From: Escherichia coli
Lineage (GTDB): Bacteria; Pseudomonadota; Gammaproteobacteria; Enterobacterales; Enterobacteriaceae
Assembly: GCF_030013205.1 (NCBI RefSeq)
Contig: NZ_CP122648.1
Length of the DNA stretch: 64,000 nucleotides
Direction: 5' to 3' (one strand)
Below are positions 33,201-36,200 of the stretch, piece by piece. A program made the position numbers. Within the stretch, counting starts at the first letter, position 1, and every line of letters starts with the position of its first letter.

Positions 33201-36200
33201 GTGGACGTTATGCTGTGGCCCGCCATGTTGGCGAGCTGGACGATATTTCACACACGATATGGGGCATCATTCGCCACTGGCTACCTGCAAGCGGCGAGAA
33301 AATGCGTAAAGCACCGATTCTGTTTCACTACACCAATCTTGCCGAAGGGATGACAGAGCAGCGACTGGAAACGGATGTTTATGTACCGTTAGCGTGATGG
33401 AGAATCTTTACCGGAGTGTGAGCCAAATCACTCGCGATAAGTTTGAGCTAACAATGCCACAGGCGTATTGTTGTCGGGCTTATAATTTCTCCGGTAAGGA
33501 ATACCATGTATACGCGAAATTTATTATGGCTGGTCAGCCTGGTAAGTGCGGCTCCTCTCTACGCTGCTGACGTTCCCGCCAACACACCGCTCGCCCCGCA
33601 ACAAGTTTTTCGTTACAACAATCATAGCGACCCAGGCACGCTCGACCCGCAAAAGGTAGAGGAGAATACTGCCGCGCAGATTGTGCTGGATCTGTTTGAA
33701 GGTCTGGTATGGATGGACGGTGAAGGCCAGGTGCAGCCCGCTCAGGCTGAACGCTGGGAGATACTGGACGGCGGCAAGCGCTATATTTTCCATCTGCGTA
33801 GCGGTTTGCAGTGGTCAGACGGTCAGCCTCTGACGGCAGAGGATTTTGTCCTCGGCTGGCAGCGCGCGGTTGACCCGAAAACGGCAAGCCCTTTTGCTGG
33901 CTATCTGGCACAGGCGCACATTAACAATGCCGCGGCTATTGTTGCGGGTAAAGCAGATGTTACATCGCTGGGTGTCAAAGCGATGGATGATCGTACTCTT
34001 GAAGTTACGCTTGAGCAGCCGGTTCCTTGGTTCACGACGATGCTCGCCTGGCCGACGCTGTTCCCGGTTCCTCATCATGTCATCGCTAAATATGGCGATA
34101 GCTGGAGTAAGCCAGAGAACATGGTTTACAACGGTGCCTTTGTGCTTGAACAGTGGGTAGTTAACGAAAAGATTACTGCACGCAAAAATCCAAAGTACCG
34201 CGATGCGCAACATACAGTATTGCAACAGGTTGAGTATCTGGCGCTGGATAATTCGGTCACCGGCTATAACCGCTATCGCGCGGGAGAGGTCGATCTCACC
34301 TGGGTTCCGGCGCAGCAAATTCCTGCCATTGAAAAATCACTGCCTGGCGAGCTACGAATTATCCCGCGTCTGAACAGCGAATATTACAACTTTAACCTTG
34401 AGAAACCGCCATTTAACGATGTGCGGGTGCGTCGGGCGCTATATCTTACGGTTGATCGACAGCTTATTGCGCAAAAGGTACTGGGGTTGAGAACGCCCGC
34501 AACCACGCTGACGCCGCCAGAGGTAAAAGGCTTTAGCGCGACGACGTTCGATGAACTGCAAAAGCCAATGAGTGAGCGTGTCGCGATGGCAAAAGCCTTG
34601 CTGAAACAGGCGGGATACGACGCCTCTCATCCGCTACGCTTTGAGCTGTTCTACAACAAGTACGATCTGCATGAAAAAACCGCGATAGCGTTGTCTTCCG
34701 AATGGAAAAAATGGCTGGGTGCACAGGTGACGCTGCGCACAATGGAGTGGAAAACCTATCTTGATGCCCGACGAACCGGTGATTTCATGCTGTCGCGGCA
34801 GTCGTGGGATGCGACGTATAATGATGCTTCCAGCTTCCTGAACACGCTCAAAAGCGATAGTGAAGAAAACGTCGGTCACTGGAAAAATGCGCAGTATGAC
34901 GCCTTACTAAACCAGGCCACGCAGATCACTGATGCGACAAAGCGTAATGCGTTGTATCAGCAGGCAGAAGTGATCATCAACCAACAGGCACCGCTGATTC
35001 CTATCTACTATCAGCCGTTAATCAAACTGCTTAAACCCTACGTTGGCGGTTTTCCGCTGCATAATCCCCAGGATTATGTCTACAGCAAAGAGTTGTATAT
35101 CAAGGCACATTGATGCCTTTATCGCCGTCGGAGCACGTCCGGCGGCGCTATTCACGCTGATCTCCTGTGACTCGACGCGGCAGATAATGTAGTATCTCCG
35201 GCAATATTGCCCCTTTGAAGGCTGGCGAATAAGTTGAGGAATCAGAATTAATGAGCGATATGGCAGAGCGCCTTGCGCTACATGAATTTACGGAAAACGC
35301 CTACTTAAACTACTCCATGTACGTGATCATGGACCGTGCGTTGCCGTTTATTGGTGATGGTCTGAAACCTGTTCAGCGCCGCATTGTGTATGCGATGTCT
35401 GAGCTGGGCCTGAATGCCAGCGCCAAATTTAAAAAATCGGCCCGTACCGTCGGTGACGTACTGGGTAAATACCATCCGCACGGCGATAGCGCCTGTTATG
35501 AAGCGATGGTCCTGATGGCGCAGCCGTTCTCTTACCGTTATCCGCTGGTTGATGGTCAGGGGAACTGGGGCGCGCCGGACGATCCGAAATCGTTCGCAGC
35601 AATGCGTTACACCGAATCCCGGTTGTCGAAATATTCCGAGCTGCTATTGAGCGAGCTGGGGCAGGGGACGGCTGACTGGGTACCAAACTTCGACGGCACT
35701 TTGCAGGAGCCGAAAATGCTACCTGCCCGTCTGCCAAACATTTTGCTTAACGGCACCACCGGTATTGCCGTCGGCATGGCGACCGATATTCCACCGCATA
35801 ACCTGCGTGAAGTGGCTCAGGCGGCAATCGCATTAATCGACCAGCCGAAAACCACGCTCGATCAGCTGCTGGATATCGTGCAGGGGCCGGATTATCCGAC
35901 TGAAGCGGAAATTATCACTTCGCGCGCCGAGATCCGTAAAATCTACGAGAACGGACGTGGTTCAGTGCGTATGCGCGCGGTGTGGAAGAAAGAAGATGGC
36001 GCGGTGGTTATCAGCGCATTGCCGCATCAGGTTTCAGGTGCGCGCGTACTGGAGCAAATTGCTGCGCAAATGCGCAACAAAAAGCTGCCGATGGTTGACG
36101 ATCTGCGCGATGAATCTGACCACGAGAACCCGACTCGTCTGGTGATTGTGCCGCGTTCCAACCGCGTGGATATGGATCAGGTGATGAACCACCTCTTCGC

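What the first reader, a model, noticed from the sequence alone, without database searches (positions are those of the whole stretch)
33398..33505. Empty ygiV-ygiS junction where K-12 carries the mqsR-mqsA toxin-antitoxin pair
ygiV and ygiS are separated by only 108 bp here. In K-12, as I recall, mqsR/mqsA lie between these genes. The spacer contains a 9-bp inverted repeat (TTACCGGAG at 33408-33416 and CTCCGGTAA at 33488-33496) bracketing most of it, possibly marking the insertion site or a regulatory stem.
Basis: partly seen in the sequence, partly recalled or inferred. Interest (0 to 1): 0.4.

Follow-up and report, generated by a model that had tools for sequence, protein, structure and literature searches.

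The report
Never-occupied mqsRA site; ygiS promoter
This 108-bp gap between ygiV and ygiS is the original, never-occupied form of the site where E. coli K-12 later gained the mqsR-mqsA toxin-antitoxin genes, and its content is the CRP-bound promoter region of ygiS, so the finding is correct but ordinary.

Summary
ygiV ends at 33397 and ygiS starts at 33506, leaving a 108-bp spacer. The inverted repeat is real and extends to 12 nt (33405-33416 / 33489-33500).

K-12 aligns up to 33399 and again from 33405. In between it has 927 bp (mqsR promoter and operators, mqsR, mqsA, terminator; 41% GC) where this window has 5 nt, GAGAA.

The empty form is ancestral. Five other Escherichia species (E. albertii, E. 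whittamii and three others) all have it.

It is also the majority state in E. coli:
- 3123 of 5426 complete genomes have the empty junction.
- 2299 carry the cassette, always at least 99% identical.
- 1354 of the empty-junction genomes have additionally lost ygiS.

Both repeat arms lie on the ygiS side of the breakpoint and are kept in K-12. The repeat therefore does not bracket or mark the insertion.

The right-hand 101 bp are strongly conserved (94-97% against about 70-77% at third codon positions). They contain a CRP site (33417-33432) identical to the site assigned to the ygiS CRP ChIP-seq peak in ETEC H10407, a TATAAT box and the ygiS ribosome-binding site.

An RNA stem that hides the ribosome-binding site is possible (fold z = -4) but has no covariation support.

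mqsRA being accessory in E. coli is already published, so interest is low.

The parts
32915..33397 (+). ygiV coding sequence (160 aa, GyrI-like, annotated as 'AraC family' regulator); forms the left flank of the junction
   Evidence: ORF. Annotated as ygiV in matching RefSeq genomes.
33400..33404 (.). Five bases, GAGAA (GGGAA in most other lineages), that occupy the exact position where K-12 has the 927-bp mqsRA cassette. The homology breakpoints are 33399|33400 and 33404|33405.
   Evidence: Pairwise BLAST against K-12 and direct reading of the K-12 sequence. The same G/A-rich short junction is present in five outgroup Escherichia species.
33405..33416 (+). Left arm of the inverted repeat, TCTTTACCGGAG. 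It starts exactly at the right-hand breakpoint. In K-12 it supplies the end of the T-run after the mqsA terminator hairpin.
   Evidence: I4.
33417..33432 (.). CRP binding site, TGTGAGCCAAATCACT
   Evidence: It is the only TGTGA-N6-TCAC match in the window. It is the reverse complement of AGTGATTTGGCTCACA, the site assigned to the CRP ChIP-seq peak at ygiS in ETEC H10407 (PMC4287617). ygiS is listed as a CRP target by genomic SELEX in K-12 (PMC3105977). The core half-sites are invariant in all six Escherichia spacers.
33450..33472 (.). Internal dyad AACAAT-N11-ATTGTT. It forms an inner hairpin in the RNA fold and was flagged as a weak terminator-like site. It is invariant across the species compared. 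Its role is unknown.
33481..33486 (+). Perfect -10 hexamer TATAAT with no good -35, as expected for an activator-dependent promoter. This is the inferred ygiS promoter.
   Evidence: Read directly from the sequence. The full sigma-70 scan found no complete promoter. RegulonDB, as quoted in PMC5120126, notes a putative promoter upstream of ygiS. The transcription start site has not been determined here.
33489..33500 (+). Right arm of the inverted repeat, CTCCGGTAAGGA. It contains the ygiS Shine-Dalgarno sequence AAGGA (33496-33500).
   Evidence: Invariant in all six species compared.
33506..35113 (+). ygiS coding sequence (535 aa, intact; family-5 periplasmic substrate-binding protein, PF00496); forms the right flank

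Best explanation
The spacer is the ancestral, never-occupied ygiV-ygiS intergenic region. It is not a deletion scar.

In the lineage leading to K-12, a self-contained 927-bp, low-GC module was inserted once. The module comprises the mqsR promoter with its two MqsA operator palindromes, mqsR, mqsA and a terminator hairpin. It went in 2 bp after the ygiV stop codon and replaced 5 bp (GRGAA). No target duplication or terminal repeats are present, so the event was an illegitimate insertion. I infer that the module was later passed between strains by homologous recombination of its flanks.

The insertion left the downstream 101 bp untouched. Those 101 bp are the ygiS control region: a CRP site at 33417-33432, a -10 TATAAT at 33481-33486, the Shine-Dalgarno sequence at 33496-33500 and the ATG at 33506. 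The most likely mechanism is cAMP-CRP bound upstream (class I geometry, about -69 to -72) activating a promoter with a weak -35.

The 12-nt inverted repeat belongs to this control region. Its right arm is the ribosome-binding site and its left arm is the sequence just upstream of the CRP site. It has no demonstrated role in the insertion.

Shown here: the breakpoints, the ancestral polarity, the population frequencies, the conservation, and the identity of the CRP site to a published ChIP-seq-derived site. Inferred: the single origin of the cassette, the position of the transcription start, CRP acting as an activator, and the repeat being incidental.
For: Breakpoints and cassette content.

Cassette composition: 41% GC against 52-53% in ygiV and ygiS.

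Single insertion event: the cassette is at least 99% identical in all 2299 genomes that carry it, never on a plasmid in the E. coli genome set, and spans the same 2022-2023 bp in 18 of the 19 listed mqsRA rows (one spans 2055 bp).

Frequency: the empty junction is found in 3123 of 5426 genomes.

Polarity: all five outgroup Escherichia species lack mqsRA, and in all of them the ygiV end runs on without a cassette into what remains of the spacer or ygiS (two have separately lost ygiS and part of the spacer).

Secondary loss looks different: strain H9Ecoli has an IS1 element next to a deletion that leaves the last 63 bp of the cassette.

Constraint: the spacer has 3-6 differences in 101-102 bp, against a 23-30% difference rate at third codon positions. 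Binomial P is about 1e-8 to 1e-9.

CRP site.

Mobility of the family: mqsRA homologues at 66-75% nucleotide identity sit on plasmids of Rahnella, Pectobacterium, Yersinia and Pseudomonas.

No small conserved ORF and no Rfam family in the spacer.
Against: The simple sigma-70 scan finds no complete promoter.

The ygiS transcription start is not known to me, so the CRP-to-start distance (about -68.5 to -71.5) and the class I assignment are inferred.

The left repeat arm starts exactly at the breakpoint. That may be coincidence, but it could also hint at a structure-prone hotspot.

The RNA fold of the spacer is unusually stable (z = -4.05). A purely DNA-level promoter explanation does not account for that.

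The patchy distribution of mqsRA was not mapped on a phylogeny, so a single origin followed by recombinational spread is inferred only from the identical breakpoints and at least 99% identity.
Confidence: 0.88

Rival explanations
1. The repeat is a functional RNA stem. In strains with the empty junction there is no strong terminator after ygiV, so ygiW-ygiV transcripts read through into the spacer. The 12-bp stem (33405-33416 with 33489-33500) closes a three-way junction that hides the ygiS Shine-Dalgarno sequence. Only transcripts that start at the ygiS promoter, inside or after the right arm, would then be translated.
For: The minimum-free-energy fold of 33398-33520 is -41.4 kcal/mol, with z = -4.05 and only 1 of 200 shuffles folding as well. 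Its closing stem is the inverted repeat and it covers AAGGA. The same closing stem appears in the predicted folds for K-12, E. whittamii and E. albertii (z = -2.0 to -3.6). Only a weak terminator-like hairpin lies between ygiV and ygiS. The spacer is strongly conserved.
Against: None of the 37 predicted pairs shows a compensatory double change. Among the variable pair cells, 6 keep pairing through one-sided changes and 5 break it, which is about what chance gives. E. whittamii has an uncompensated A-to-T change in the middle of the left arm. The right arm is constrained anyway because it is the ribosome-binding site. ygiS orthologues at 71% and 58-59% amino-acid identity in other bacteria have unrelated upstream regions with no such stem. 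There is no Rfam match. The conservation is already explained by the CRP and promoter elements.
Confidence: 0.12
2. The window's lineage once carried mqsRA and lost it by precise excision, or by replacement with an empty allele. On this view the junction is a deletion site.
For: mqsRA is patchily distributed among E. coli. Homologous recombination with an empty allele could restore the ancestral sequence without leaving a trace.
Against: All five outgroup species share the empty form, including the same G/A-rich short junction. No cassette remnant is present in the window. The cassette has no repeats that could drive precise excision. The one cassette truncation examined in detail (H9Ecoli, one of 16 genomes with under 80% of the cassette) leaves a scar. 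The spacer in the window and in UM146 carries variants different from those linked to the cassette haplotype.
Confidence: 0.04
3. The inverted repeat is an insertion-site signal, such as a recombination or attachment site or a structure-prone hotspot, that directed the mqsRA cassette to this position.
For: The right-hand breakpoint (33405) coincides exactly with the first base of the left arm.
Against: Both arms lie on one side of the insertion and are unchanged in K-12. There is no target-site duplication, no terminal repeats and no integrase or transposase in the 927 bp. The 96-bp unit is single-copy in E. coli genomes. The cassette was found at no other chromosomal site that could reveal a site preference.
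Confidence: 0.03

Closest known systems
mqsRA (ygiU-ygiT) type II toxin-antitoxin locus of E. coli K-12, and published work showing that K-12 toxin-antitoxin systems are accessory, horizontally acquired and unevenly distributed among E. coli
   Same: Same chromosomal site and the same flanking genes (ygiV, ygiS). The window is the cassette-free allele that this literature implies. The works are Fiedoruk 2015 and Ramisetty & Santhosh 2016, as cited in PMC7167474 and PMC5120126, and the Fig. 1B legend of PMC7167474.
   Different: The window has no toxin-antitoxin genes at all. The exact breakpoints (33399/33405, 5 bp replaced by 927 bp), the ancestral polarity from five outgroup species, and the 3123 / 2299 / 1354 allele counts were worked out here. 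I could not read the two primary survey papers to check whether they already report them.
Class I CRP-dependent promoters (for example lac P1, with CRP centred at -61.5 or one or more helical turns further upstream)
   Same: A near-consensus CRP site (TGTGA-N6-TCACT) lies upstream of a good -10 with a poor -35. CRP occupancy at ygiS has been reported by ChIP-seq and by genomic SELEX.
   Different: The transcription start and the activation itself have not been demonstrated. The distance from the site centre (33424.5) to a start at 33493-33496 would be -68.5 to -71.5, so correct helical phasing is not established.
Leader structures that sequester the Shine-Dalgarno sequence (translational riboregulators, RNA thermometers)
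   Same: A predicted long-range stem pairs the ygiS Shine-Dalgarno sequence with a segment about 80 nt upstream, with a significantly low folding energy.
   Different: There is no covariation and no Rfam family. The likely ygiS start lies inside or after the right arm, so the gene's own mRNA would lack the left arm. The structure is absent from ygiS orthologues outside Escherichia.

Membership tests
Unoccupied (ancestral) allele of the mqsRA insertion site | Flanking genes orthologous and collinear with the K-12 genes that flank mqsRA | tested here: met
   ygiW-ygiV and ygiS-parC align at 97-99% with K-12. K-12 has mqsR and mqsA between ygiV and ygiS.
Unoccupied (ancestral) allele of the mqsRA insertion site | No remnant of the inserted element at the junction or elsewhere in the window | tested here: met
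   blastn with the cassette parts and tblastn with MqsR and MqsA find nothing in the window or in identical strain L003. Only 5 nt lie between the two homology blocks.
Unoccupied (ancestral) allele of the mqsRA insertion site | Outgroup species share the empty configuration | tested here: met
   E. albertii, E. whittamii, Escherichia sp. MOD1-EC7003, Escherichia sp. E1V33 and the GTDB species represented by SCPM-O-B-8794 all lack mqsRA. In each, the ygiV end runs on without a cassette into what remains of the spacer or ygiS.
Mobile-element attachment site / terminal inverted repeats / target-site duplication | Repeat copies flank the inserted DNA in the occupied allele | tested here: not met
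   Both repeat arms lie downstream of the cassette in K-12 (L001 2927-2939 and 3012-3024). No direct or inverted repeat joins the two cassette ends.
Mobile-element attachment site / terminal inverted repeats / target-site duplication | A recombinase or transposase associated with the element, or a multi-copy element | tested here: not met
   The cassette encodes only mqsR and mqsA. The spacer and the cassette are single-copy in each genome.
CRP-dependent promoter | Sequence matching the CRP consensus and bound by CRP | tested here: met
   TGTGAGCCAAATCACT at 33417-33432. It is identical to the site listed for the ygiS CRP ChIP-seq peak in ETEC H10407 (PMC4287617). ygiS is a genomic SELEX target in K-12 (PMC3105977). 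Binding in this particular strain is inferred from sequence identity.
CRP-dependent promoter | Core promoter with a mapped start at a class I or class II distance from the CRP site | tested here: inconclusive
   A perfect TATAAT lies at 33481-33486, but the scan finds no complete -35/-10 pair. No start-site data were available. The implied distance is -68.5 to -71.5.
CRP-dependent promoter | Transcription depends on cAMP-CRP | not testable with these tools
   This needs a reporter or RNA measurement in a crp mutant.
Structured cis-regulatory RNA leader | Fold more stable than composition-matched shuffles | tested here: met
   z = -4.05 for the window. z = -2.0, -3.1 and -3.6 for E. whittamii, E. 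albertii and K-12.
Structured cis-regulatory RNA leader | Base pairs supported by compensatory changes | tested here: not met
   None of 37 pairs has a double change. 6 cells show one-sided changes that keep the pair and 5 cells are broken, across six Escherichia sequences. Power is low because the region is 94-99% identical.
Structured cis-regulatory RNA leader | Match to a described RNA family | tested here: not met
   Rfam 15 at E up to 10 gives only noise hits at 9-14 bits against gathering scores of 37-62.
MqsR/MqsA toxin-antitoxin system | Presence of the mqsR and mqsA genes | tested here: not met
   tblastn of both K-12 proteins against the 64-kb window finds no hit at E up to 1.

The most novel reading that the evidence does not exclude
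The Escherichia-specific, highly conserved 101-bp ygiS upstream region might be more than a CRP promoter. It could be a structured three-way-junction RNA, transcribed by read-through from ygiW-ygiV, whose closing stem (the inverted repeat) masks the ygiS ribosome-binding site. This would act as a translational insulator or sensor controlling a protein reported to promote bile-salt (deoxycholate) import. On this reading, the mqsRA cassette landed exactly at the 5' edge of the structure and cut it off from upstream transcription with its own terminator. E. coli lineages would then differ in ygiS control in three ways: the ancestral leader, the toxin-antitoxin insertion, and outright loss of ygiS.
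Probability: 0.08. Interest if true: 0.4.

Novelty: already known. Interest (0 to 1): 0.12.

Why it matters
It matters little as a discovery. It is already published that mqsRA, like other K-12 toxin-antitoxin modules, is accessory and horizontally acquired, and the empty site is both the ancestral and the commonest state.

There are three practical points:
- Claims about MqsR/MqsA physiology made in K-12, including the disputed link to ygiS and bile-salt tolerance, cannot apply to the 58% of complete E. coli genomes that lack the module. In the 25% that also lack ygiS, they cannot apply at all.
- The exact breakpoints, with 5 bp replaced by 927 bp, no repeats, and 101 bp of the ygiS control region left intact, give a clean natural "minus" allele. 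This could be used to design scar-free mqsRA deletions. That speaks directly to the concern, raised in PMC6918082, that engineered deletions may have polar effects on ygiS.
- The spacer's conservation is explained by a documented CRP site.

Tried and rejected
- Rfam scan of 33200-33700 at a permissive threshold returned only noise.
- The sigma-70 promoter scan found no complete promoter and only one weak terminator-like hairpin. The promoter assignment therefore rests on the TATAAT box and the published CRP data.
- A small-ORF search found only a 58-aa GTG ORF (33394-33570) that overlaps the ygiV stop and ygiS. Its 5' end is removed by the K-12 insertion and shifted by an indel in E. albertii, so I rejected it as coding.
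- Covariation test on six Escherichia spacers showed no compensatory pairs.
- I looked for the repeat upstream of more distant ygiS orthologues at 71% and 58-59% identity, found through the protein search and contig look-ups. Their upstream regions are unrelated, apart from a short match around the ribosome-binding site and start codon in the 71% orthologue L011, so they offered no test of covariation.
- I searched for terminal repeats or a target duplication at the cassette ends and found none.
- I searched for the cassette on plasmids. The only matches at 99% or better were a record that is really a chromosome (4.9 Mb) and one 354-kb E. coli record. True plasmid homologues are only 66-75% identical, so no donor was identified.
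- Ramisetty & Santhosh 2016 and the Thomason 2015 transcription-start data are not held in the paper library.
- I did not assign phylogroups to the three alleles. Only well-known strains are cited: K-12 and ATCC 8739 carry the cassette, while O157:H7 and UM146 are empty.
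Full report
**1. The observation**

The window around the finding carries, on the + strand:
- ygiW
- ygiV (32915-33397)
- ygiS (33506-35113, 535 aa, intact)
- parC

qseBC lies upstream on the other strand. RefSeq genomes that match this region annotate the same genes. The spacer is 33398-33505, 108 bp.

The inverted repeat exists. Extended, the arms are TCTTTACCGGAG (33405-33416) and CTCCGGTAAGGA (33489-33500), separated by 72 nt, with one mismatch that would be a G.U pair in RNA.

A perfect 9-mer inverted repeat occurs in 1.2% of shuffles of the spacer itself. Across the 64-kb window, however, about 17 such repeats with a loop of 100 nt or less are expected by chance, and 46 are seen. 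The repeat alone is therefore not remarkable.

**2. Comparison with K-12**

MG1655 (locus L001) has the gene order ygiV - mqsR - mqsA - ygiS. Pairwise alignment gives sharp breakpoints:
- The left homology block ends at window 33399 (...GCGTGATG).
- The right homology block starts at window 33405 (TCTTTACCGGAG...).
- Between them the window has GAGAA, and K-12 has 927 bp (L001 2001-2927).

The 927 bp contain:
- a terminator-like hairpin near the left end;
- the two TAACCTTTTAGGT palindromes that are the known MqsA operators (D2);
- mqsR and mqsA;
- 31 bp after the mqsA stop carrying a hairpin whose T-run continues into the host TCTTT.

The cassette is 41% GC, against 52-53% for ygiV and ygiS. 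It has no terminal inverted repeats and no flanking direct repeat.

The repeat therefore does not bracket the insertion point. Only its left arm abuts it.

**3. Frequencies among 5426 complete E. coli genomes**

| Query | Result |
|---|---|
| 120-bp probe across the empty junction | contiguous in 3123 genomes |
| 927-bp cassette | present in 2299 genomes, always at least 99% identical, never on a plasmid in that collection |
| Junction of the third allele (ygiS lost) | found in 1354 genomes |

The first two classes sum to 5422, so they are essentially mutually exclusive. In 18 of the 19 listed mqsRA rows the flanking probe spans the same 2022-2023 bp (one spans 2055 bp), which means identical breakpoints.

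The third allele has the empty junction, but ygiS is replaced from codon 8 almost to its end by 236 bp of foreign DNA.

The approximate split is therefore:
- about 1770 genomes like the window;
- 2299 like K-12;
- 1354 empty with ygiS lost.

O157:H7 strains and UM146 are empty. K-12 and ATCC 8739 carry the cassette.

**4. Polarity: which state came first**

A scan of one genome per species with YgiV returned five non-E. coli Escherichia species:
- E. albertii
- E. whittamii
- Escherichia sp. MOD1-EC7003
- Escherichia sp. E1V33
- the species represented by SCPM-O-B-8794

None has mqsR, mqsA or any other part of the cassette. In all five, the end of ygiV runs on without a cassette, through a short G/A-rich junction, into what remains of the spacer or ygiS; two of them have separately lost ygiS and part of the spacer. 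The empty form is therefore ancestral, and K-12 carries an insertion that replaced 5 bp.

For contrast, a truncated cassette looks different. Strain H9Ecoli has an IS1 element next to a deletion that leaves the last 63 bp of the cassette.

The K-12 spacer shares its two private variants with the ygiS-lost allele of strain S42. This places the insertion on that haplotype background.

MqsRA-family modules at 66-75% nucleotide identity occur on plasmids of Rahnella, Pectobacterium, Yersinia, Pseudomonas and others. That is consistent with a mobile origin, but no close donor was found.

**5. What the spacer contains**

The right-hand 101 bp are 94-97% identical between the window and the three outgroups that keep ygiS. 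Third codon positions of ygiV and ygiS differ by 20-31% (23-30% when the two genes are pooled). The binomial P for so few spacer differences is about 1e-8 to 1e-9. The region is therefore under constraint.

It contains TGTGAGCCAAATCACT at 33417-33432, the only TGTGA-N6-TCAC match in the window. Its reverse complement, AGTGATTTGGCTCACA, is exactly the site listed for the CRP ChIP-seq peak at ygiS in ETEC H10407 (PMC4287617). ygiS is also among the CRP targets found by genomic SELEX in K-12 (PMC3105977). The CRP half-sites are invariant in all six spacers, whereas the 10 bp just downstream vary.

A perfect TATAAT lies at 33481-33486 with no good -35. The Shine-Dalgarno sequence AAGGA is at 33496-33500.

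I therefore read the spacer as a CRP-dependent ygiS promoter of class I type. The CRP occupancy rests on published data. The promoter geometry is my inference, because the transcription start is unknown to me.

RegulonDB, as quoted in PMC5120126, likewise notes a terminator after mqsA and a putative promoter before ygiS.

**6. The inverted repeat as an RNA stem**

Folded as RNA, 33398-33520 gives -41.4 kcal/mol (z = -4.05). The structure is a three-way junction whose closing stem is the repeat and which covers the ygiS Shine-Dalgarno sequence. The stem is also predicted for K-12, E. whittamii and E. albertii.

Several observations count against a functional role:
- The alignment fold shows no compensatory change in any of 37 pairs.
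- Of the variable pair cells, 6 keep pairing through a one-sided change and 5 break it.
- E. whittamii has an uncompensated change in the middle of the left arm.
- The right arm is constrained anyway, because it is the ribosome-binding site.
- A start site downstream of the TATAAT would leave the left arm out of the gene's own mRNA.
- ygiS orthologues at 71% and 58-59% identity in other bacteria sit in different contexts, have unrelated upstream regions and lack such a stem.
- Rfam has nothing here.

A role in masking ygiS translation on read-through transcripts from ygiV remains possible, since only a weak terminator-like hairpin lies in between. I give it about 12%.

**7. What is already known**

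The literature states that the K-12 type II toxin-antitoxin modules, mqsRA included, are accessory, unevenly distributed and horizontally transferred (PMC7167474; PMC5120126, citing Ramisetty & Santhosh 2016 and Fiedoruk 2015).

The proposed functional link between MqsR and ygiS (bile-salt import) and its later questioning are discussed in PMC6918082.

The finding therefore restates a known presence/absence polymorphism.

**8. Verdict**

- The feature is the ancestral empty site plus the CRP-bound ygiS promoter.
- Novelty: already known.
- Interest: low.

Noticed in passing
window 30204-30312 (mdaB-qseC spacer; breakpoint at 30307/30313): A second 'empty' site lies 3 kb away. Strain S42 has 592 bp containing ygiZ (a DUF2645 protein) between mdaB and qseC, where the window and its twin CFSAN018748 have only 5 bp. 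From my own knowledge, K-12 also carries ygiZ there. Among the outgroups, the ygiZ segment is present only in E. whittamii, at 90% identity, so its history is patchy.
   Followed up: partly
L002 6629-6864 (E. coli S42); corresponds to window 33528-35071: In 1354 of 5426 complete E. coli genomes, including O103:H2 and ETEC strains, ygiS is deleted from codon 8 almost to its end and replaced by 236 bp. That 236 bp matches, at 93% identity, a region annotated elsewhere as a 'group II intron maturase-specific domain-containing protein', which points to a group II intron remnant. These genomes keep the empty ygiV junction and the ygiS promoter region.
   Followed up: partly
L004 4543-4677 and L006 3686-3888: Escherichia sp. 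MOD1-EC7003 and Escherichia sp. E1V33 each have their own ygiS deletion, with breakpoints different from the E. coli one. ygiS has therefore been lost at least three times independently in the genus.
   Followed up: partly
hits H71 and H110 (L015 1748-2563): IS1 activity at the occupied allele. Strain 203740 has IS1 inserted in mqsR. Strain H9Ecoli has an IS1B next to a deletion that removes qseC, qseB, ygiW, ygiV, mqsR and most of mqsA.
   Followed up: partly
protein P0024: A 387-aa NCBI protein combines the YgiW domain (PF04076) with the substrate-binding domain PF00496. It is 94% identical to YgiS over about half of its length. This suggests a deletion in some strain that fuses ygiW to ygiS.
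   Followed up: no
window 35114-35250 (ygiS-parC spacer): This 137-bp intergenic region is 97-98% identical between the window and E. albertii, E. whittamii and SCPM-O-B-8794. That is more conserved than the ygiS upstream spacer and is presumably the parC promoter region.
   Followed up: no
L011-L013 4001-5608: The closest ygiS orthologues outside Escherichia (about 71% amino-acid identity, from Logan assemblies of unknown organisms) lie downstream of a marR-family regulator and a MATE efflux gene, not next to ygiV or parC.
   Followed up: no
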